Positions 1-31,090 of a DNA stretch of 33,072 nucleotides are shown piece after piece (position 1 is the first letter of the stretch; each line of letters opens with the position of its first letter). This DNA is from Moorena bouillonii PNG (GTDB lineage Bacteria > Cyanobacteriota > Cyanobacteriia > Cyanobacteriales > Coleofasciculaceae), in the NCBI RefSeq assembly GCF_001942495.1, contig NZ_MKZS01000001.1:186503-219574 (forward strand). The letters run 5' to 3'. The position numbers were made by a program, and so were the translations under genes. Under the pieces are notes generated by a model. It searched no databases and was not told the DNA's origin. It saw only the letters and a program-made list of their open reading frames with translations.

Positions 1-1471
1 GTTCTGCCAGAGCCTACCAGGAACTGCCTGGAAATGATGCTCCTAGATTTTCCTGATCGCCCCCAGCTAGAGAATGCTGACCACGCCCAGACAATGGGTC
101 TATTTTTTGCATCAACAGTTCCTCAACTACCGATGGCAGTTCTTTTTGCCAAAGCTTCTCATAGGGAGTGAGCATATAAGCCTGAGGACCACCGACCAGC
201 TTGAGTTCACCAGTCTGAATGTTACGCACATAGATACCTTCATTCTTATCGAGGGGAATTGCTTGACGCTTCTCAACCACTTCCACTTCCACAGGGGGAA
301 TATAATCTTGTGGCCCAGCAATCATCCACAAATCCCCTGGTTGATGAGTAATGACCTGGTCACCTTCCCCCTCATTAAACGCTTCTTTGGATCGAAGCAA
401 TAGTGCTTCGAGCTCACTGAGAACATAGATGTTTTGGATACCATTCTCCAAGGACTCACCGGGATGCAAGAAAAATGATGTTCTCCCCTGGCGAACCTCT
501 CGCATACCCAGCTGAGGTTTACCAGACTCATCAATGGGGTCAACCACAATACACCATTCGTGATCGCTCAGGGTAGTAATCGTGACTTCTCCCACTACAT
601 CTTCATAAACATCGGGAATATGAATTTCTGCATCTTCAAAGGTGACCAACCATTCATCTCCAGCTTTACGCTGACGACCAAAAATATCAGTAAAGGTGCG
701 TTTAGCTTTCAGATGTAATGCTTTTTGTTCTGTCAAAATGTAAGCATTAATAATGCCAATTACTTCTTCATCCACACCAGGTAAATAGGCTCCTTCTTCT
801 CTAACCAGCCATTCTTCACCTGCTCTACGTCTATTCCTTTGACGATCGGTGCAATTCTGCCGTGCTAACAGGTGTAAGGCTTGGTTAGGTTTAATCACCT
901 CAGCTGTTACTGTCTCAACTACTTCCACCTCCACCCGGGGAATATAAGTTCCAGGTCCTTCAAACAGCCATTCATCACCTGCTAAACGGTTAATTGTTTC
1001 AGTCTGGGTTTCTCCATCAACTATTCTCGTAACCGTATCGGTAAAATCCCTAATTGCTCTCAGACGCAGTGCTTGATTGGTCTCGACTACTGCCAGTTGC
1101 GTGACATCCCCTACCAGTTTCTCGTTTGGATAAAGGGGAAACGGATCTTGCGCGAAGCGAATTTCCAGATCACCGTAGCGCAGTCGAATTTGACCATGTT
1201 GATCAGCAATGGGTTGACCGTCTTCATCCCGGAGTAACGGATTAGCAACCACACAATAATACCGAGGCGGCACAATAATCATCGGTTCAGGTTTTAAGAT
1301 CAGCCGCTCGTGATCCCGAAGAGTAATGGTTTGAGGACCAACCTCCAGTCGGGTAACACCGGTGTTGTTGTCTAGCACATGAATAAACTGTTGGGGCTTG
1401 ATGCGAATCACTTCACTAGTTGTCCTAGGCCCTTCCATTTTCTTATCTGTTTTACGCTCAGTTGTAGTCAT
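1..1471 (-). CDS. Major vault protein (MVP) homologue, N-terminal about 485 aa. The 3' end of the gene runs off the left window edge. It has tandem vault repeats.
   Basis: Translation shows repeated modules with the MVP signature, e.g. 'GDEWLFEGPGTYIPRVEVEVVE', 'GEEWLVREEGAYLPGVDEEV', 'GDEWLVTFEDAEIHIPDVYEDVVG' and 'PGDLWMIAGPQDYIPPVEVEVVEKRQAIPLDKNEGIYV'. The N-terminus 'IRIKPQQFIHVLDNNTGVTRLEVGPQTITL...PPRYYCVVANP' is near-collinear with metazoan MVP as I remember it. The ORF is open to position 1, with no stop. Confidence 0.85.
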
Positions 1472-2881: not shown

Positions 2882-4012
2882 TCACAAGCTACATACTTCC
2901 AGGCAATCGAGGATATATCTAGCCGCATCTACAAATACCATATCCAGATACTGAAACTGATCCGGATGGAGCTGGGAGCGCAACTCCTCCCAAGCCTGTT
3001 CATCCTGAATATCTTCATCCCTAAATCCTGCCTCCAGGACTGCTGTATACCTAACATCAATCCCCAGATGCTTAGCCACTATGTGTAAATAGTCCTGCTC
3101 AGTAGGGTCAATTTCCCCATCCGCCGCTGACATATCATAAGCAAAGCACAACAGGAGTAGCTTCTCAGCATCGCTTAGAGGCTTAGTCAAAGTTAACCAT
3201 TCGGGGCAATTAGACGCAGTAGGGTTCCGCTTAACTTGCCTAAGCAGAAGTCCGATTAAGAACGGCCCCAATTGACGCAAATCATCCTCCTCGGGAGGCG
3301 TTAAGCGGTCAATAGTTTTTGCCAGCAGCTGTGTTTCTTCTTCTACCACTTGACCATCCGCCAACATTACTTCCAAAGAAATAGTGACCAAGGCTACCAC
3401 AAAAATCATGGTTGGTGTAATATCTAGTACACTGAGTTGCCTTCCCACCAGACGAGACAAGTATTCAACAACTTGCTGATTTACCAGTCGAATACCTAAA
3501 GCCTCAAACTTTTCTGGTTGCAGCTTTGATTGCAACTCTTTCCAAACCGACTGATCTGGAAATTCCTCACCCTTGAACCAAGCTTCCATCAGCACTGGGT
3601 AGCGGGAATCAATGCCTAGGGAATTTGAGGCTAGCTGTAAATACTGGCTTTCATTGGGGTCAATCGTCCCATCCACCGCTGACATGGCATAGCAAAAGTT
3701 AAGGAGCAAAATTCGCTCTGACTCAGACAGGGAAGTAGTTAGCTTCAACCACTGCTGAGGATTTTGATAAACCGGATTCTTCTCTAGTCCACAAAGCAAA
3801 CGCTGCACCAATTGACGGACATCCCTCTGGGGGGGTACTAATCGCTCAATGGTTTTCTCTAGTAGCTGCTTTTCTTCGTCCTGTACAACGCCATCAGCAT
3901 ACATGACTCCCATCCCAAGGGTTACTAGGGCAGCTAAAAACCTCACAGGCGGTGTTATATTGTCTTGAGTGAGGTTTCGTCCGGTTAGGTGGGACAAAAG
4001 TTCAATAGTCAT
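2882..4012 (-). CDS. Protein with two tandem TerB-like (tellurite-resistance TerB / DjlA-N-like) domains
   Basis: There are two homologous halves of about 185 aa. Each carries paired '...M.ADG...E...L' motifs (VMYADGVVQDEEKQLL / AMSAVDGTIDPNESQYL; VMLADGQVVEEETQLL / DMSAADGEIDPTEQDYL). Each half ends in 'LGID.RY..L.EA.F..E'. Confidence 0.5.
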   Translation of the reverse strand: MTIELLSHLTGRNLTQDNITPPVRFLAALVTLGMGVMYADGVVQDEEKQLLEKTIERLVPPQRDVRQLVQRLLCGLEKNPVYQNPQQWLKLTTSLSESERILLLNFCYAMSAVDGTIDPNESQYLQLASNSLGIDSRYPVLMEAWFKGEEFPDQSVWKELQSKLQPEKFEALGIRLVNQQVVEYLSRLVGRQLSVLDITPTMIFVVALVTISLEVMLADGQVVEEETQLLAKTIDRLTPPEEDDLRQLGPFLIGLLLRQVKRNPTASNCPEWLTLTKPLSDAEKLLLLCFAYDMSAADGEIDPTEQDYLHIVAKHLGIDVRYTAVLEAGFRDEDIQDEQAWEELRSQLHPDQFQYLDMVFVDAARYILDCLEVCSL

Positions 4013-26009: not shown

Positions 26010-26054
26010 TCACGCTACAGTTGAATGGTATCGCAGGCTGTGGGCTGACTATCT

Positions 26055-26932
26055 AGGGCATGTCGTCAGTTAGAGAATTGACAACCAGTCAGTGCAGCTA
26101 TAGAACTGAGGGGAGTCAGGAAAACTCAACTAAGGAGGAAGTAATGCGTCGGTATGCCTTGCGTCTTGGATCAGTGGGAGCGAATTAAGGATATGCTACC
26201 TGGCCAGAAGGGCGCTTGTTGGTGGAAATGCCAAAGATAACCGCCTATTTGTTGAAGCCGTACTGTACCGATACCGTGCAGGTATTCCGTGGCGTGATTT
26301 GCCGGAGAGGTTTGGCGATTTTCGGTCTGTGCACAAGCGTCATAGCCTAGGGTCTGAAAGTGGTGTGATAGAACGTGTATTCAAGACACTCTCATTAGAT
26401 GCAGACAACGAGTACGCTGCGCTCGACGAACACAATTGTACGCGCTCATCAACGAGGGTGCTGGTGCAAAAAAAAACACCAGACGATAAACCATTAACAC
26501 AAGCAATTGGACGCAGTAAGGGTGGTTTATCTACCAAAATTCATGCCACCTGTGATGCACGCTGGTAATCCCACAGGGTTTCATCTGACCCCCGGTCAAG
26601 CACATGATTTGCAGGGAGCTGATGCGTTACGCGGGTGGTATACATGAGATTGGTGCACTGCTTGCAGACAAGGCTTACGATGCGTCAGAGCGGGTGCTCA
26701 AACGATTAAAAGAAGCTGACTGCCAAGCTGTCATTCCTCCTAAAGTCAATCGTACTCAACTTTGAACATATGACTTGCACATGTATAAGTGGCGTCATCT
26801 GATCGAAAACTTTTTTCAGAAACTTAAGCAATACAGGGCAATAGCAACTCGCGCTTGATAAAACTGCTCGTAATTTTTTGGGAGCCATTCATCTCGCCGC
26901 TTCTGTCATCTGGCTTAACTGACGACATGCCC
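26055..26932 (+). mobile_element. IS5-family insertion sequence (IS427/IS1031-like, 878 bp). It has 17-bp perfect terminal IRs (GGGCATGTCGTCAGTTA) flanked by a TA duplication. The transposase is interrupted.
   Basis: IRs at 26055-26071 and 26916-26932 with flanking TA at 26053-54 and 26933-34. The transposase fragments read 'ERIKDMLPGQKG', 'NAKDNRLFVEAVLYRYRAGIPWRDLPERFGDFRSVHKRHS', 'SKGGLSTKIHATCDA', 'GNPTGFHLTPGQAHDLQGADAL', 'LADKAYDASE' and 'YKWRHLIENFFQKLKQYRAIATR', all IS5-family hallmarks. They are spread over three frames with stops, so at least part of the disruption is decay rather than a programmed frameshift. Confidence 0.8.
26299..26925 (+). pseudogene. IS5-family DDE transposase, frameshifted and carrying stops
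   Basis: See the mobile element above. There are multiple in-frame stops, including 'GSVGAN*', 'CDARW*' and 'GWYT*'. Confidence 0.7.
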
Positions 26933-27295
26933 TAAGTTAAAGCGATTATTAGTACGGCGCACTTGGTAGTTTATTTCTATCAAGAGACGATTAAATTGAT
27001 CTTCATCCGGGTAAACACCTACATCTAGAACCTCAATGCGCGGTTCCCACTGGGTCAAGGCTCGGCGTACCTCCACTGTTAATTGTCCAGCTGTCCCAGC
27101 GCTGTTGCTGGCAAATACTAAATCATGAATACCGCAGCCAAAATCTGGCCGCATCAGCCGTTCTCCTGGAGAAGTACTCATAATCATCCAAATCGACTGG
27201 CGGACACTATCCTCATATTGCGCCATATCGATTTGTTTATTTTGGTCGAGTACTACGGGGAAACTCCATCCCACTCCGAGAAAATCAGTAGTCAT
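26915..27295 (-). CDS. Baseplate protein of the gp25/GPW family (TssE-like). The C-terminus has been altered by the IS5-family insertion.
   Basis: 'SIWMIMSTSPGERLMRPDFGCGIHDLVFASN' is the GPW_gp25 signature. The last 6 codons and the stop are encoded by the TA duplication plus the IS inverted repeat. Confidence 0.85.
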   Translation of the reverse strand: MTTDFLGVGWSFPVVLDQNKQIDMAQYEDSVRQSIWMIMSTSPGERLMRPDFGCGIHDLVFASNSAGTAGQLTVEVRRALTQWEPRIEVLDVGVYPDEDQFNRLLIEINYQVRRTNNRFNLGHVVS

Positions 27296-27310: not shown

Positions 27311-27736
27311 TCAACCCCCAATAAATACCTTCGTCGGCTTACCAGGCCCAGGGGTTACTGTGCCGTGGGGAGGGGGTAATTCACTACAGGTCTTAACTGG
27401 GTCACCAATGCGCGCCACTGGTTTACCCTCAATTTTCACAGAGGAACTACCCTTAGTAATTTCAGCTGTTTTGTTAGGTTCCTTGACAAACTTGATCGGT
27501 GAAGTTCCCGGTGGCGGTATTGGTGGGTGTGCCTGGGTTTTACCCTGGCTGCCCTTTAAAGCCACCAATTTACCACCAATTTTCACCTTTTTACTCAACT
27601 TTTGCTCGAATTTTCCTTGGAAAGGAATTGGCATTGGCGCTACAATTGGCGGCGCAGGAGCAGGTGGTTGACCCTGGACTTTGTGCGTACAAGATGTCAC
27701 AACTAAATCGCCTTTTCTGGCTGCCGGTTTACCCAT
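27311..27736 (-). CDS. PAAR-repeat spike-tip protein (141 aa) with a central proline-rich insert
   Basis: 'GKPAARKGDLVVTSCTHKV' and 'GKPVARIGDPVKTCSELPPPHG...VFIGG' are PAAR motifs. GGAG sits 11 nt upstream of the ATG. Confidence 0.8.
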   Translation of the reverse strand: MGKPAARKGDLVVTSCTHKVQGQPPAPAPPIVAPMPIPFQGKFEQKLSKKVKIGGKLVALKGSQGKTQAHPPIPPPGTSPIKFVKEPNKTAEITKGSSSVKIEGKPVARIGDPVKTCSELPPPHGTVTPGPGKPTKVFIGG

Positions 27737-27772: not shown

Positions 27773-27847
<75 letters not shown>

Positions 27848-27975: not shown

Positions 27976-27989
27976 CATTCGCTGATACC

Positions 27990-28117
27990 TGATTGCTGAT
28001 TGCTGATTGCTGATTGCTGATTGCTGATTGCTGATGGCTGATTGCTGATTGCTGATTGCTGATTGCTGGTTGCTGATTGCTGATTGCTGATTGCTGATTG
28101 CTGATTGCTGATTGCTT
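27990..28117. repeat. Heptamer array TGATTGC of about 18 copies
   Basis: Direct reading. It abuts the stop codon of the spike gene. Confidence 0.9.
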
Positions 28118-28955
28118 AATTAATTGATACCGTCTTACCGGTAATTTTAACGTTTTTACTAGCTTTAAAGTGCATCCCCTGCTTAGTTTCAATTTTGCTA
28201 CCATTAGCATTAACTTTCAATGACTTATCTGTCTTCATATCCAGGTTATTCTTGGCAGTAATTTTGATATCTTCCTCGGAAATAATTTCGATACCCTTAC
28301 CACCAAGCTTTAGCTTACCTTCCTTAGACTCAATGGTAATCGAATTATCCTTAGTATTAATAATAATGCTGTTTTTGCCAGTTTTATCAATTACTTCAAT
28401 TTTTTCCTTATCCTTAGTATCATCTAAGCAAATAGTGTGACCACTTTGGGCAATTACTTCAATTTTGCCTTTGTCCTTAGTATCATCTAAACGGATAGTA
28501 TGTTTCTTATGGGAAATGACTTCAACTTTTTCTTCATCCTTAGTATCATCTAAGCGAATAATATGACCACTACGGGACTTAATTGTACGCTTATTAATAG
28601 TCTTTTTTTTACTATCTTCCTTGTCTTTTTCAGGAGACTCAGGTGGTTTATCTTTGCCATTCCATAACCCTCCTAGGATATAGGGAAAATTAATATCACC
28701 TTGTTCAAAAGCTACCAGCACCTCATCATTCACCTCCGGCAAAAAATAAATACCACGGTCATTACCAGCCATGGGAGTTAACACCCTAGCCCAATAACTT
28801 TCATCATTATCTGAGAGCCAAGGAAACTTGACCTTGACTCGCCCTAAGTTTTCCTCATCGCCATTGTTAGTCACTATTCCCATAGTCACCCCATAGAAAC
28901 GACCTCGTATTTCAGGGGGACCTAGCAAATTACTTAGTAAATCGATGCTTGTCAT
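28116..28955 (-). CDS. Spike protein of the gpV/gp5 family (Phage_base_V OB-fold N-domain plus beta-helix repeats)
   Basis: 'YGVTMGIVTNNGDEENLGRVKVKFPWLSDNDESYWARVLTPMAGNDRGIYFLPEVNDEVLVAFEQGDINFPYILGGLWN' is the canonical gpV/VgrG-gp5 N-domain. The C-terminal repeats 'HTIRLDDTKDKGKIEVI' occur three times. Confidence 0.85.
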   Translation of the reverse strand: MTSIDLLSNLLGPPEIRGRFYGVTMGIVTNNGDEENLGRVKVKFPWLSDNDESYWARVLTPMAGNDRGIYFLPEVNDEVLVAFEQGDINFPYILGGLWNGKDKPPESPEKDKEDSKKKTINKRTIKSRSGHIIRLDDTKDEEKVEVISHKKHTIRLDDTKDKGKIEVIAQSGHTICLDDTKDKEKIEVIDKTGKNSIIINTKDNSITIESKEGKLKLGGKGIEIISEEDIKITAKNNLDMKTDKSLKVNANGSKIETKQGMHFKASKNVKITGKTVSIN

Positions 28956-28963
28956 GATGTCCC

Positions 28964-30020
28964 GGTGGTGATAAACATGTAGTGATACAACATTTACTTT
29001 AGCCTAAATAAGACATTTGTTAATCAAAAATATAGTCACTAATATAGTCACTTGACTATCATATTATTAGCAATACTTATATAATTTATTAAAAAATTTG
29101 ATTAAAAAACTCTTATGAAACTGCTATATTTTTATTAGTAAAAAATGCTTTTTCGATAAACAAGCCCTGGTAAACAATGAATGCAAAACCTGATTTAATA
29201 ACCCGACCTAATTGCCCTTACTGCAATTGTGAGCGAACAGTTAAAAATGGCAGCACTCATAATAAAAAGCAAAAATACCTCTGTAAAAACTGTAAGAAGC
29301 AGTTTCTAAAAAATCCGACAAAAAAGCCGATACCATTGTCGAAAAAAAAGATAATAGATGACCTCTTGCTTGAAAAACTATCTTTAGCTGGCATTGCACG
29401 AGTAGTTGGAGTTTCAAAAACATGGCTCCAAAATTATGTTAATAAAAAGTATGCCGAAACTCCCCGAAAAATCAAGGTTTCCGAAAAACCAAAAGGGAAA
29501 ATTACCATAGAATGTGATGAAATGTGGTCTTTTGTTAACCAGAAAGATAATCAGCAATGGATTTGGTTGGCAATTGATGGCCGTTGGCCACGCTACGCGA
29601 ACAAAAAACTAGAGAAATAATTGGAGTTTATATTGGTGATCGTACTCGATACTCGGCCAAAAAATTATGGCAGTCTTTCCCTCCAGTAGTTCGACAATGT
29701 GCTGTGTGTTATACAGATTTTTGGGAAGCTTATAAAACAGTAATACCTAAAAAGCGATGCAGCGCGGTCTTGGGGGTTTCCCCCATGAGCGACTGCATCA
29801 AGACAACGTCACAAGCCAGTAGCAAAAAAAACTGGTAAAACTAATCATATTGAAAGATTAAATAATACCTTAAGACAAAGGATTAGTCGTCTGGTAAGAA
29901 AAACTTTGTCATTTTCCAAAAAAGAACGAAAATCACTTAGGAGCTATTTGGAATTTTATTCATCACTATAATAAGTGTTTGTCAGGTTGATTAGGCCATC
30001 ACTACATGTTTATCACCACC
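28964..30020 (+). mobile_element. IS1-family insertion sequence (1057 bp). It has 23-bp perfect terminal IRs (GGTGGTGATAAACATGTAGTGAT) and an 8-bp target duplication GATGTCCC.
   Basis: IRL 28964-28986 and IRR 29998-30020 are exact reverse complements. Direct repeats GATGTCCC lie at 28956-28963 and 30021-30028. The internal ORFs read 'NCPYCNCERTVKNG...CKNCKKQF' (zinc finger), 'IECDEMWSFVNQKDNQQWIWLAIDG', 'REIIGVYIGDR...YTDFWEAYKTVIP' and '[30 protein letters not shown]', all IS1 InsA/InsB hallmarks. Confidence 0.9.
29177..29985 (+). pseudogene. IS1-family transposase (InsAB-like), broken into three frames by inserted small elements and a poly-A tract
   Basis: Frame changes occur at about 29600, where the element GGCCGTTGGCCACGCTACGCGAAC sits. 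They also occur at about 29760-29800, where the hairpin gatgcag...TTGGGGGTTTCCCCCATGAgcgactgcatc sits, and at the A8 run at about 29822. Confidence 0.75.
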
Positions 30021-31090
30021 GATGTCCCATTTCTCCTAACCTTGAATGCTGTGCGATACCCTCGTTTATGAGAATAACTATGGGTGCTGGAGGTGACATA
30101 GTAGTCACCACTAAACTGTTTGCCCACCCCTTGGATAGTAATAACAGTAGCTGCTCGCAAGTCAGGGCGTCCGACACACAAGCCCTCCCCACTGATGTAT
30201 TCTAGGGCCATGTTATTAAATCCTCCCTGAGCGATTTGCTCAGCTTCCTCTCTACTGAACACAGGGCGATACAAACGTTCGCTGGTTTTTTTTCCACTAC
30301 CCAAAGCCGGATCTACAGCCTTAGCACCGCTCTTGTTAGTACTAAAACCAGGACTGGCTCGCCCAATGAAGGCTTTCTTGTCCTTCGGGTTCCAACCGCG
30401 CACCTCCACCTGTCCCACCTGGGTCAAGCTGGTCAGTCGGGAAGAAAAACTGAGCAAATCCTTTCGTTGAACTAGGGTCAACACTGACTTGGATTTATCC
30501 TGATGGGGCCGGAAATATAGTGTTTTATCTTGAACCACTACCTCATAACCGAGTCGTTGAGCACGGGTCTGAAGAAATTCCATGTCTGTTTGGTTATGCT
30601 GTAGTACATAGTCCAAAACCAGCTTTGTCGTTACTCCCCCATACTTTAGACCGGCTTTTTTGGCAATATCTCTAGCAATATCGCTGTCTTTCTTTTTAGT
30701 AAACGAGCGAGTGTTGTAACCCCGAAGCAATCGATGACTGTAGTCGTAGCCGCGCACTGTCAACAGAGGTATTTCCCCATGGGCAAATTCTGGTTCCAGA
30801 CCGGTAATCTGACCCATCATCAGTTTTTGCAGTTTCCCTCCACTACCCCCGTAGCCCATAAAAATCGTTACCTCATTGCCTAGCTTAAACAGTTGCGGAT
30901 CAATCCACTCCTGCTTTTCTTGGTCCCAGTTGGCAAGCTTGATGGTAAACATAGTGGGAGTACTAACGTTTTCATCCACAATTACTGCCATCACATCAGA
31001 CCGCAACTGTTGTCCCCTGATCAGAATTCTGAAGCCAGGGACTGAGGTAGCGATGCTATTGGTACTAGTTTGAGGAGGTGTCGAGAGCAT
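30002..31090 (-). CDS. Baseplate hub protein of the phage late control gene D (gpD/gp27-like) family. The stop codon is now supplied by the IS1 inverted repeat.
   Basis: 'QHNQTDMEFLQTRAQRLGYEVVVQDKTLYF' and the C-terminus 'GDYYVTSSTHSYSHKRGYRTAFKV' match the Phage_GPD pattern. The last 5 codons, 'VVINM*', are encoded by IRR of the IS1 element. Confidence 0.8.
   Translation of the reverse strand: MLSTPPQTSTNSIATSVPGFRILIRGQQLRSDVMAVIVDENVSTPTMFTIKLANWDQEKQEWIDPQLFKLGNEVTIFMGYGGSGGKLQKLMMGQITGLEPEFAHGEIPLLTVRGYDYSHRLLRGYNTRSFTKKKDSDIARDIAKKAGLKYGGVTTKLVLDYVLQHNQTDMEFLQTRAQRLGYEVVVQDKTLYFRPHQDKSKSVLTLVQRKDLLSFSSRLTSLTQVGQVEVRGWNPKDKKAFIGRASPGFSTNKSGAKAVDPALGSGKKTSERLYRPVFSREEAEQIAQGGFNNMALEYISGEGLCVGRPDLRAATVITIQGVGKQFSGDYYVTSSTHSYSHKRGYRTAFKVRRNGTSVVINM

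What the first reader, a model, noticed from the sequence alone, without database searches (positions are those of the whole stretch)
26018..26940. IS5-family element replaced the last 13 codons of the gp25-like baseplate gene
The 17-bp inverted repeats GGGCATGTCGTCAGTTA, with flanking TA on both sides, delimit an 878-bp IS5-type element. The current gp25 C-terminus '...NRFNLGHVVS*' is encoded by the duplication plus the inverted repeat. Deleting the element predicts the original '...NRFNLDSQPTACDTIQL*', which ends 5 nt before the ATG of the downstream 127-aa gene. This is a precise example of an IS creating a chimeric C-terminus in a structural protein. The 13 lost residues may matter for gp25 function in the baseplate.
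Basis: seen in the sequence. Interest (0 to 1): 0.55.

Follow-up and report, generated by a model that had tools for sequence, protein, structure and literature searches.

The report
Dead IS5 element at rearrangement joint
A decayed 877-bp IS5-family insertion sequence does cut off the end of a contractile-injection-system baseplate gene (gp25) in Moorena bouillonii, but the DNA on its other side belongs to an unrelated housekeeping locus. Reading across it therefore does not recover the original gene end, and the case is an ordinary IS-associated rearrangement (or an assembly join).

Summary
The gp25 tail GHVVS* is encoded by the inverted repeat.

- All gp25 homologues end ...NRFNL-VYPFYL(D/E)(Y), not ...DSQPTACDTIQL. 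Eight native residues were lost, not 13. They are half of the last beta-strand.
- The left flank (up to 26055) is the native 5' region of DUF6464, a conserved cyanobacterial gene next to fmt and OmpA.
- In relatives, gp25 is followed by a 1,300-aa baseplate-J-like gene. DUF6464 is preceded by a Na-K-Cl cotransporter gene.
- The closest relative (Moorena SIO4G2) has both TA sites empty.

So the IS sits at a synteny breakpoint. The baseplate-J gene still exists elsewhere in the source genome (M. bouillonii PNG), so it was moved, not deleted. The likely cause is recombination between two IS copies or transposition within the chromosome. An assembly chimera across two IS copies cannot be excluded.

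The IS copy is dead: about eight frameshifts and a stop codon. It was probably already dead when it arrived.

A second element, of the IS1 family (28964-30020), is a true simple insertion. It adds 5 residues to the hub protein.

The case is ordinary and of low interest.

The parts
26056..26932 (+). IS5-family insertion sequence, 877 bp, defective copy
   Evidence: Inverted repeats and boundaries. It is 95.6% identical to an 872-bp copy in Moorena sp. SIO3H5 (L006). The stitched transposase matches NF033580 at 247 bits.
26056..26072 (+). Left terminal inverted repeat GGGCATGTCGTCAGTTA
   Evidence: The same 17-mer ends IS5-family elements and ~125-bp MITE-like elements elsewhere, always next to TA.
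26916..26932 (-). Right terminal inverted repeat. On the minus strand it encodes GHVVS and the first two bases of the stop codon of the truncated gp25.
26054..26055 (.). TA flanking the left IS end. It is the single TA of the native DUF6464 upstream sequence TTGGGC-TA-GATAGTC.
   Evidence: Empty-site sequences in L002, L031, L034, L035 and L036.
26933..26934 (.). TA flanking the right IS end. It is the single TA of the native gp25 sequence AAC-TTA-GTT (Asn-Leu-Val).
   Evidence: Empty-site sequences in L001, L033 and L037.
26144..26922 (+). Transposase pseudogene. Three central frame changes are shared with the SIO3H5 copy. Five more +1 indels and one in-frame stop are private to this copy.
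   Evidence: Three-frame translation, copy-to-copy alignment, and tblastn against the intact 252-aa homologue P0422.
26468..26476 (+). A9 run inside the transposase remnant, at one of the shared frame changes
   Evidence: Any role in transcriptional slippage is inference only.
26915..27295 (-). Truncated, chimeric gp25-like baseplate gene (126 aa). The native part is 26933-27295 (residues 1-121).
   Evidence: Pfam GPW_gp25 at 101 bits. It is identical to GenBank OLT57817.1 / WP_075895765.1 of Moorena bouillonii PNG. Homologues are 129-130 aa.
26010..26055 (-). Remaining native 5' region of DUF6464.
   Evidence: 100% identical to L035 and L036, which then continue with unrelated upstream sequence and no IS.
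25626..26009 (-). DUF6464 gene. It belongs to the fmt/OmpA housekeeping block and is not a CIS gene.
   Evidence: Pfam PF20065 at 137 bits. 583 mainly cyanobacterial homologues. Identical from MEPD onward to P0256 of M. bouillonii. Synteny in L002, L031 and L034.
27311..27736 (-). PAAR protein gene of the CIS cluster
   Evidence: Pfam PAAR_motif. 100% identical to the Moorena SIO4G2 locus L037.
28116..28955 (-). Spike (gp5/VgrG OB-fold) gene of the CIS cluster
   Evidence: Pfam Phage_base_V at 106 bits. Identical to OLT57819.1.
28964..30020 (+). Second mobile element: IS1-family, 1057 bp, with 23-nt perfect inverted repeats and an 8-bp target duplication GATGTCCC (28956-28963 and 30021-30028). 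It is a simple insertion between the hub and spike genes.
   Evidence: (NF033558 at 115 bits).
30002..31090 (-). Baseplate hub (gpD/Pvc8-like) gene. Its C-terminus is lengthened by 5 residues (VVINM) encoded by the IS1 inverted repeat.
   Evidence: 362 aa here against 357 aa in relatives.

Best explanation
The element is a non-autonomous, pseudogenised copy of a small IS5-family insertion sequence that targets TA. It sits at a joint between two genome regions that are not neighbours in any related genome.

**The two sides**
- On one side is the first 121 codons of the contractile-injection-system (CIS) baseplate gene gp25. The break is at the TA of codon Leu121.
- On the other side is the promoter-proximal 46-61 nt of the housekeeping gene DUF6464. 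The break is at a TA in its upstream region.

**Most likely history (inferred)**
1. The element, mobilised by a transposase supplied from elsewhere in the cell, inserted at TA in gp25 and at TA upstream of DUF6464.
2. Either homologous recombination between the two copies, or a single copy transposing within the chromosome to the second TA, then inverted or translocated the intervening DNA.
3. One IS copy, with TA on each side, was left at the new joint.

**Consequences shown by the sequence**
- gp25 loses its invariant C-terminal VYPFYLDY, which is half of its last beta-strand. It gains GHVVS from the inverted repeat.
- The gp25 gene is uncoupled from the downstream wedge genes (baseplate-J-like, LamG, tail protein I). 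These genes survive elsewhere in the genome.
- DUF6464 loses most of its native upstream region.

Together with the IS1 insertion between the hub and spike genes, this describes a CIS locus that is being broken up. It is not a precise single-gene C-terminal swap.
For: - **Breakpoint.** Homology to the Moorena SIO3H5 housekeeping contig stops at 26056. Homology to its CIS contig starts at 26932. The same stop at 26056 is seen against four more relatives.
- **C-terminus.** All homologues end NRFNL-VYPFYL... V-Y-P-F-Y is invariant in 30 sequences and is kept in PDB entries 2IA7 and 9GTP. In the AlphaFold model, residues 119-127 form the last strand, with block-mean pLDDT of 91-97 across that region.
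- **Neighbours in relatives.** gp25 is followed by a 1,317-1,353-aa baseplate-J-like gene, then LamG and Tail_P2_I genes. DUF6464 is preceded by a 49-aa ORF and an SLC12 cotransporter gene.
- **Empty sites.** Both TA sites are empty in the nearest relative, Moorena SIO4G2. Its flanks are 97.5-100% identical to the window.
- **Not a deletion.** M. bouillonii PNG still has a 1,313-aa baseplate-J protein (WP_214607778.1) and an SLC12 protein (OLT58853.1).
- **Geometry.** On one Moorena SIO4G3 contig, DUF6464 lies at 16.1 kb (+) and gp25 at 96.3 kb (-), with the wedge genes between them. Inverting the interval between the two TA sites reproduces the window's order and strands exactly.
- **TA is the general target.** Every copy, relative and MITE-like element examined has TA on both sides.
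- **Dead copy.** Searches show the frameshifts and stop. No protein 90% or more identical exists in 5.8 billion sequences. The flanks are 100% identical to an uninterrupted relative, while the IS carries 16 private differences. The copy was therefore defective before it arrived.
Against: - The source genome outside the window could not be read, because it is absent from the searchable contig collections. The reciprocal joint (SLC12-IS-gp25 tail-baseplate J) was therefore not seen. The pattern search for it found nothing, but that search did not cover the source genome.
- Accession order in M. bouillonii does not fit a single clean 80-kb inversion. The response regulator is OLT57824, three numbers after the tube gene. 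SLC12 is OLT58853 and a LamG fragment is OLT61276. In strains PAL and JHB the two loci lie roughly 3,200-3,900 accession numbers apart. Either more rearrangements occurred, or scaffold order is not genome order.
- From memory only (the paper is not held), the 8.26-Mb PNG record is a reference-assisted scaffold. A false join through two IS copies is therefore possible.
Confidence: 0.62

Rival explanations
1. Assembly chimera. The genome has two separate simple insertions of this IS, one in gp25 and one upstream of DUF6464. The assembler or scaffolder joined the two loci through the repeat. gp25 would still be interrupted at the same TA, but its tail and the wedge genes would lie just beyond that IS copy.
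For: - The joint lies exactly at the two ends of a repeated element.
- The accession order of neighbouring genes in the PNG record looks scrambled relative to every relative.
- From memory, the record is a reference-assisted scaffold of a short-read draft. This could not be verified.
Against: - The window has no N and reads through two IS elements and long 7-nt repeat arrays.
- This IS copy carries 16 differences from the only other known copy. They are spaced at most about 110 nt apart. If the other copies in the PNG genome, which could not be read, lack these variants, this copy would assemble unambiguously and would not look like a collapsed consensus.
- The chimeric 126-aa protein is what GenBank and RefSeq carry, but that only reflects the same assembly.
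Confidence: 0.25
2. A single simple insertion of the IS occurred into an intact gp25 whose natural end was ...NRFNLDSQPTACDTIQL*, with DUF6464 as the next gene of the operon.
For: - TA is present on both sides.
- Excision gives an open frame that stops 5 nt before an ATG.
Against: - No homologue among 3,427 has that tail. The 120 best hits listed cover only about 90% of the reconstructed query, and every homologue aligned ends VYPFYL...
- The left flank is 100% identical to DUF6464 upstream DNA of relatives that have no CIS genes nearby.
- gp25 is followed by a baseplate-J gene in every relative examined.
- TA flanks are universal for this IS, so they carry no information about a single event.
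Confidence: 0.02
3. IS-mediated deletion. The IS inserted in gp25, and an adjacent deletion removed the gp25 tail and all DNA up to the DUF6464 upstream region.
For: - The wedge genes are absent from the window.
- IS-adjacent deletions are common (general knowledge).
Against: - The baseplate-J (1,313 aa) and SLC12 genes, which should then be lost, are still present in the same genome record.
- In the one relative where both loci share a contig, gp25 and DUF6464 are on opposite strands. A deletion there could not place DUF6464 next to the gp25 5' part.
Confidence: 0.05

Closest known systems
Small IS5-family insertion sequences of the IS427 / IS1031 / ISL2 type (ISfinder groups, from general knowledge), for example the IS5-family elements of Komagataeibacter and Acetobacter that share the same 17-nt end
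   Same: - Size of about 0.85-0.9 kb.
- Terminal inverted repeats starting GGG, with TA immediately outside both ends.
- A single transposase of about 250 aa with a DUF4096 N-terminal part and a DDE_Tnp_1 catalytic part.
- The identical 17-mer end with a TA flank is found in loci L012, L020 and L022.
   Different: - The transposase gene is destroyed by about eight frame changes and a stop.
- The closest intact protein is only 74% identical.
- The two flanks of this copy are not contiguous DNA, so no target duplication from a single event can be shown.
IS-mediated chromosomal rearrangement: homologous recombination between IS copies, or transposition within the chromosome, giving inversions or translocations. 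It is well documented in IS-rich bacteria (general knowledge).
   Same: - One IS copy lies exactly at a synteny breakpoint.
- The target dinucleotide is kept on each side.
- The genes on each side are otherwise intact and nearly identical to uninterrupted relatives.
   Different: - The reciprocal joint was not observed.
- The element is itself non-autonomous.
Cyanobacterial contractile injection systems, for example the thylakoid-anchored system of Anabaena PCC 7120 (All3318, the gp25 homologue, PDB 7B5H), and extracellular systems such as Afp and PVC (Afp9 in 6RAO, Pvc9 in 6J0N)
   Same: - Gene order tube-LysM, hub, spike, PAAR, gp25.
- gp25 matches All3318 (E = 7e-22), Pvc9 and Afp9 by sequence.
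- Relatives carry the full set, with sheath, gp19-like tube, baseplate-J-like, LamG and tail protein I genes.
   Different: - Here the locus is broken after codon 121 of gp25.
- The locus is also split by an IS1-family element between hub and spike.
- The sheath and wedge genes are not in the window.
MITEs: miniature, non-autonomous derivatives of IS elements that are moved by a transposase made elsewhere
   Same: - Perfect ends combined with no working transposase.
- Elements of about 125 bp with the same ends and TA flanks exist in other marine cyanobacteria (L011, L014, L026).
   Different: This copy is full length (877 bp) and still carries a recognisable pseudogene.

Membership tests
IS5 family insertion sequence | DDE transposase matching the family profile | tested here: met
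   The stitched remnant scores 247 bits against NF033580 (cut-off 110), covering profile positions 2-258 of 258. It also matches Pfam DUF4096, DDE_Tnp_1 and DDE_Tnp_1_2. This holds only as a pseudogene.
IS5 family insertion sequence | Terminal inverted repeats bounding the element | tested here: met
   17 of 17 nt are perfect, 0.07 matches are expected by chance, and the same ends occur in independent copies.
IS5 family insertion sequence | Short target-site duplication created by one insertion event | tested here: inconclusive
   TA is on both sides here and in all other copies. In this copy, however, the two flanks come from different loci, so each TA is the native TA of its own site.
IS5 family insertion sequence | Intact transposase reading frame (an autonomous element) | tested here: not met
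   About eight frame changes and one stop relative to the intact 252-aa homologue P0422.
GPW/gp25 baseplate wedge (sheath initiator) family | Pfam PF04965 domain | tested here: met
   101 bits, residues 26-116. PDB 2IA7 matches at E = 1e-38 and T4 gp25 at E = 1e-9; these PDB matches were obtained with the 99%-identical M. producens PAL orthologue P0246.
GPW/gp25 baseplate wedge (sheath initiator) family | Complete C-terminal beta-strand (R-F-N-L-V-Y-P-F-Y in this clade) | tested here: not met
   The strand spans residues 119-127 in the model. V-Y-P-F-Y is invariant in homologues. In the window it is replaced by G-H-V-V-S.
Contractile injection system gene cluster | Hub, spike, PAAR, gp25 and tube genes in the canonical order | tested here: met
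Contractile injection system gene cluster | gp6/gp7-like wedge genes directly downstream of gp25 | tested here: not met
   They are present in the SIO3H5, SIO4G3 and PAL relatives. In the window, the IS, DUF6464 and fmt follow instead.
   The restored tail DSQPTACDTIQL contrasts with the conserved VYPFYLDY. For comparison, the IS1-family element at 28964-30020 passes this test.

The most novel reading that the evidence does not exclude
The private lesions of this IS copy are not ordinary point mutations. Of the 19 runs of difference from the Moorena SIO3H5 copy, 9 are replacements of 3-4 adjacent bases, for example TGA to ATT (twice), TGG to ATA and AAA to TTT. Five of the lesions carry an extra base. 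Such runs make up about 1-4% of the differences in each flanking gene. If this is not a sequencing or assembly artefact, it could be the footprint of an undescribed process in Moorena that targets repeated elements and introduces clusters of mutations, inactivating them.
Probability: 0.04. Interest if true: 0.7.

Novelty: new member of a known kind. Interest (0 to 1): 0.15.

Why it matters
- **For annotation.** The 126-aa protein in GenBank and RefSeq (OLT57817.1 / WP_075895765.1) is listed as an ordinary gp25 family protein. It is in fact a truncated, IS-fused remnant. The M. bouillonii PNG injection-system locus is split and probably non-functional as a unit.
- **For method.** For an IS with a fixed 2-bp target, matching flanks do not prove a single insertion. 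'Excise and read through' must be checked against uninterrupted relatives.
- **Beyond that.** It is a routine example of IS-driven erosion in an IS-rich cyanobacterial genome.

Tried and rejected
- **Searching for the reciprocal joint.** A degenerate pattern (IS end + TA + VYPFYL codons) against genome contigs gave 0 hits. This is uninformative because the source genome is not in that collection.
- **Scanning for the 17-mer inverted repeat in genomes.** Most of the 26 hits had no IS homology and are probably chance. Only one other full copy (L006) and one 77-nt remnant (L024) were found.
- **Scanning metagenomes.** This found only a distant relative.
- **Testing template switching.** I tested whether the clustered substitution patches were copied from nearby sequence. 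Matches covering the patches (8-11 nt) were no longer than for random positions (mean 9.4 nt), so this was rejected.
- **Using accession-number order to prove an inversion.** The numbers do not fit a single simple inversion, so no claim is made.
- **Reading the genome paper for the assembly method.** It is not held, and related searches gave nothing useful.
- **Rfam and promoter/terminator scans of the region.** No Rfam match and no promoter-like site were found. The scan gave one terminator-like site, at the rate expected by chance.
Full report
**1. The observation**

- The 17-mer GGGCATGTCGTCAGTTA occurs exactly twice in the 33-kb window, at 26056-26072 (+) and 26916-26932 (-). With up to 3 mismatches allowed, 0.07 matches are expected by chance. 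The repeat finder extends the arms to 19 nt because TA lies outside both ends.
- The gp25-like ORF (26915-27295, minus strand, 126 aa) ends ...NRFNLGHVVS*. Leu121 (TTA) uses the flanking TA. GHVVS and the stop codon are read from the inverted repeat.
- Deleting the IS and one TA gives ...NRFNLDSQPTACDTIQL*, then CGTGA, then the ATG of the 127-aa ORF.

**2. What the element is**

- Pieces of a transposase lie in all three plus-strand frames. Stitched together, they match NCBIfam NF033580 (IS5 family transposase) over its whole length at 247 bits against a cut-off of 110. They also match Pfam DUF4096, DDE_Tnp_1 and DDE_Tnp_1_2.
- Intact relatives are single ORFs of 250-257 aa, widespread in cyanobacteria and proteobacteria. 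The best is only 74% identical, and nothing 90% or more identical exists in the protein collection.
- One other full copy was found, in Moorena sp. SIO3H5 (L006, 872 bp, 95.6% identical, TA on both sides). A 77-nt remnant of the right end lies in M. producens 3L.
- Measured against the intact homologue P0422, both full copies share three central frame changes. One is at an A9 run at 26468-26476. The window copy has five more +1 indels and an in-frame stop. It is a dead, non-autonomous copy with perfect ends.
- TA lies immediately outside the ends in every real instance examined:
  - the SIO3H5 copy;
  - a related 851-bp IS in Moorena SIO4G2 with an intact transposase (L038);
  - a metagenomic relative (L029);
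  - Komagataeibacter and Acetobacter IS5-family elements that share the very same 17-mer end;
  - MITE-like elements of about 125 bp in Spirulina sp. SIO3F2 and another marine cyanobacterium.
But TA is an obligatory target, so finding it on both sides says nothing about whether the two flanks were once contiguous.

**3.

- A search with the reconstructed 133-aa protein found 3,427 homologues. The best 120 cover only about 90% of the query and are 127-139 aa long.
- Aligned, they all end NRFNL-VYPFYL(E/D)(Y). Neither the present tail nor the 'restored' tail matches.
- All other Moorena gp25 proteins are 129-130 aa and end ...NRFNLVYPFYLDY. M. producens PAL is 99% identical over the 121 shared residues.
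- V-Y-P-F-Y is invariant in a 30-sequence alignment. It is retained in solved relatives 2IA7 and 9GTP.
- In an AlphaFold model (mean pLDDT 86.9), R-F-N-L-V-Y-P-F-Y is the last of three beta-strands. Block-mean pLDDT across that region is 91-97.
- So 8 residues were lost, not 13. They are half of a core strand.
- gp25-like proteins are sheath initiators, whose sheet is the docking point for the first sheath ring. This rests on general knowledge and on the PDB label 'Sheath Initiator PA0617'. The loss is therefore likely to be damaging, but this is inference.

**4. What lies on the other side of the IS**

- BLAST of the window against two contigs of Moorena sp. SIO3H5 shows a clean switch:
  - window 17659-26056 matches the housekeeping contig (RNase II ... 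OmpA, fmt, DUF6464);
  - window 26932 onward matches the separate contractile-injection-system (CIS) contig;
  - the switch falls exactly at the IS ends.
- The same stop at 26056 is seen against four further relatives.
- The 127-aa ORF is DUF6464 (137 bits). This is a conserved gene with 583 mainly cyanobacterial homologues. In relatives a 49-aa ORF and an SLC12 Na-K-Cl cotransporter gene lie on its upstream side, and fmt and OmpA lie on the other side.
- In relatives gp25 is followed by a 1,317-1,353-aa baseplate-J-like gene, then LamG and tail-protein-I genes.
- Empty sites can be read directly:
  - gp25 has AAC-TTA-GTT-TAT-CCA-TTC-TAT-TTA-GAC-TAT-TAA;
  - the DUF6464 upstream region has TTGGGC-TA-GATAGTC.
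- The nearest relative on both sides is the Moorena SIO4G2 genome assembly. Its DUF6464 side is 100% identical over 430 nt, PAAR 100%, and the gp25 5' part 97.5%. It has both sites empty.
- The 'restored' 12 codons are therefore simply DUF6464's upstream non-coding DNA read in the gp25 frame.

**5. Source and fate of the missing genes**

- Exact protein look-ups identify the window as Moorena bouillonii PNG. OmpA is OLT57813, fmt OLT57815, the chimeric gp25 OLT57817 / WP_075895765.1, spike OLT57819, hub OLT57820 and tube OLT57821.
- The same 8.26-Mb record still encodes a 1,313-aa baseplate-J protein (WP_214607778.1), the SLC12 transporter (OLT58853.1) and a LamG fragment (OLT61276.1).
- The DNA that should follow gp25, and the DNA that should precede DUF6464, was therefore moved and not deleted.

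**6. Mechanism**

- On one contig of Moorena sp. SIO4G3, DUF6464 lies at 16.1 kb (+) and gp25 at 96.3 kb (-), with the wedge genes between them.
- Inverting the interval between the two TA sites gives exactly the window's order and strands: OmpA+, fmt+, DUF6464-, joint, gp25 5' part-, PAAR-.
- This fits either recombination between two inversely oriented IS copies or transposition within the chromosome with inversion.
- The fit is geometric only. In strains PAL and JHB the two loci are thousands of genes apart by accession number. In PNG the response regulator that normally neighbours SLC12 is OLT57824, just past the tube gene, while SLC12 is about 1,000 numbers away.
- Either further breakpoints exist just beyond the window, or scaffold order does not equal genome order.
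- As I recall, this record is a reference-assisted scaffold. I could not verify that. A false join through two IS copies therefore remains a live rival, which I put at about 0.25.
- Against the false-join rival, the window has no N, and this IS copy carries private variants spaced at most about 110 nt apart. If the other copies in the PNG genome, which could not be read, lack these variants, this copy should assemble unambiguously.

**7. Timing**

- The flanks are 97.5-100% identical to an uninterrupted relative. The IS differs from its only known sibling at 39 columns, including six private disabling lesions.
- The copy was therefore almost certainly defective before it reached this site. That implies it was moved by a transposase made elsewhere, or arrived by recombination.
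- A related IS with an intact 252-aa transposase (68% identical) exists in M. bouillonii and SIO4G2. Its ends differ at 3-4 of 17 positions, so whether it can act on this element is unknown.

**8. An oddity**

- Of the 19 difference runs between the two IS copies, 9 are 3-4 adjacent bases long. In each flanking gene such runs are about 1-4% of the differences.
- The SIO3H5 state matches the family consensus. At the one site where a third copy exists, that copy also carries the SIO3H5 state. The window state is therefore derived.
- No nearby template explains the patches.
- This may be an assembly or sequencing artefact, or an unusual mutational process. I leave it unexplained.

**9. Context**

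- The CIS fragment carries a second mobile element of the IS1 family at 28964-30020. It is 1057 bp, with 23-nt perfect inverted repeats and an 8-bp duplication GATGTCCC.
- This one is a true simple insertion. Excision restores the hub stop overlapping the spike start (ATGA). The insertion lengthens the hub protein from 357 to 362 aa (...NGTS to ...NGTSVVINM).
- The locus as a whole is being broken up.

**10. Verdict**

The IS identity, the ends and the chimeric tail are right. The reconstructed original C-terminus, the count of 13 lost residues and the link to the 127-aa gene are wrong.
- In kind, this is a known phenomenon involving an undescribed member of the IS5 family. Interest is low.

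Noticed in passing
window 28956-30028: An IS1-family element lies at 28964-30020. It is 1057 bp with 23-nt perfect inverted repeats and an 8-bp target duplication GATGTCCC. Its transposase ORF is truncated (147 aa; NF033558 at 115 bits). It is inserted precisely where the hub stop overlaps the spike start. It adds VVINM to the hub protein (362 aa against 357 aa) and separates the two genes.
   Followed up: yes
window 26056-26932 compared with L006 2507-3378: The window IS copy differs from the Moorena SIO3H5 copy mainly by replacements of 3-4 adjacent bases: 9 of the 19 difference runs. Five of the lesions carry an extra base, and recurring changes include TGA to ATT (twice). Such runs are about 1-4% of the differences in each flanking gene. 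No template was found in the window.
   Followed up: partly
L011 5000-5124; L014 5718-5842; L026 3793-3918; L027 from 2000: MITE-like elements of about 125 bp carry the same terminal 17-mer (0-3 mismatches) and TA on both sides (for L027 only one end was found). They occur in Spirulina sp. SIO3F2 and another marine cyanobacterial genome assembly. The identical 17-mer also ends IS5-family elements in Komagataeibacter and Acetobacter (L012, L020, L022).
   Followed up: partly
window 27773-27847 and 27981-28116: Long 7-nt tandem arrays (TCAGCGG about 11 times, GCTGATT about 19 times) fill a 380-bp spacer between the spike and PAAR genes. The spacer is 34 bp in Moorena SIO3H5. Conversely, the roughly 400-bp 7-nt-repeat spacer that relatives have between hub and spike is absent here. 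Small 'genes' called in such spacers in relatives (99-161 aa) look spurious.
   Followed up: partly
window 29753-29806 and L002 5796-5849: A 54-bp stretch inside the IS1-family element is 100% identical to an intergenic stretch of the Moorena SIO3H5 housekeeping contig. This suggests a shared small repeat or an IS fragment.
   Followed up: no
window 21851-21867 and 26557-26573: A 17-nt stretch of the IS5 element (GCACGCTGGTAATCCCA) recurs, reverse-complemented, at the 3' end of the conserved 290-aa gene. This is unexpected by chance, and its meaning is unknown.
   Followed up: no
L035 1-683; L036 1-803: In the closest relatives (Moorena SIO4G2 and SIO3I6), the DUF6464 upstream region is broken about 60 nt further out by a different element, an IS200/IS605-type TnpB gene. 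The same intergenic region is therefore a repeated target for mobile elements.
   Followed up: partly
window 14-1471 (minus strand): A 485-aa ORF has strong matches to the Major Vault Protein repeat domains (Pfam Vault, 227 bits). This family is best known from eukaryotes.
   Followed up: no
M. bouillonii PNG accession numbers: The response regulator that neighbours SLC12 in relatives is OLT57824, only three numbers after the tube gene. SLC12 is OLT58853. This hints at a second breakpoint, or a scaffold join, just beyond the right end of the window.
   Followed up: partly
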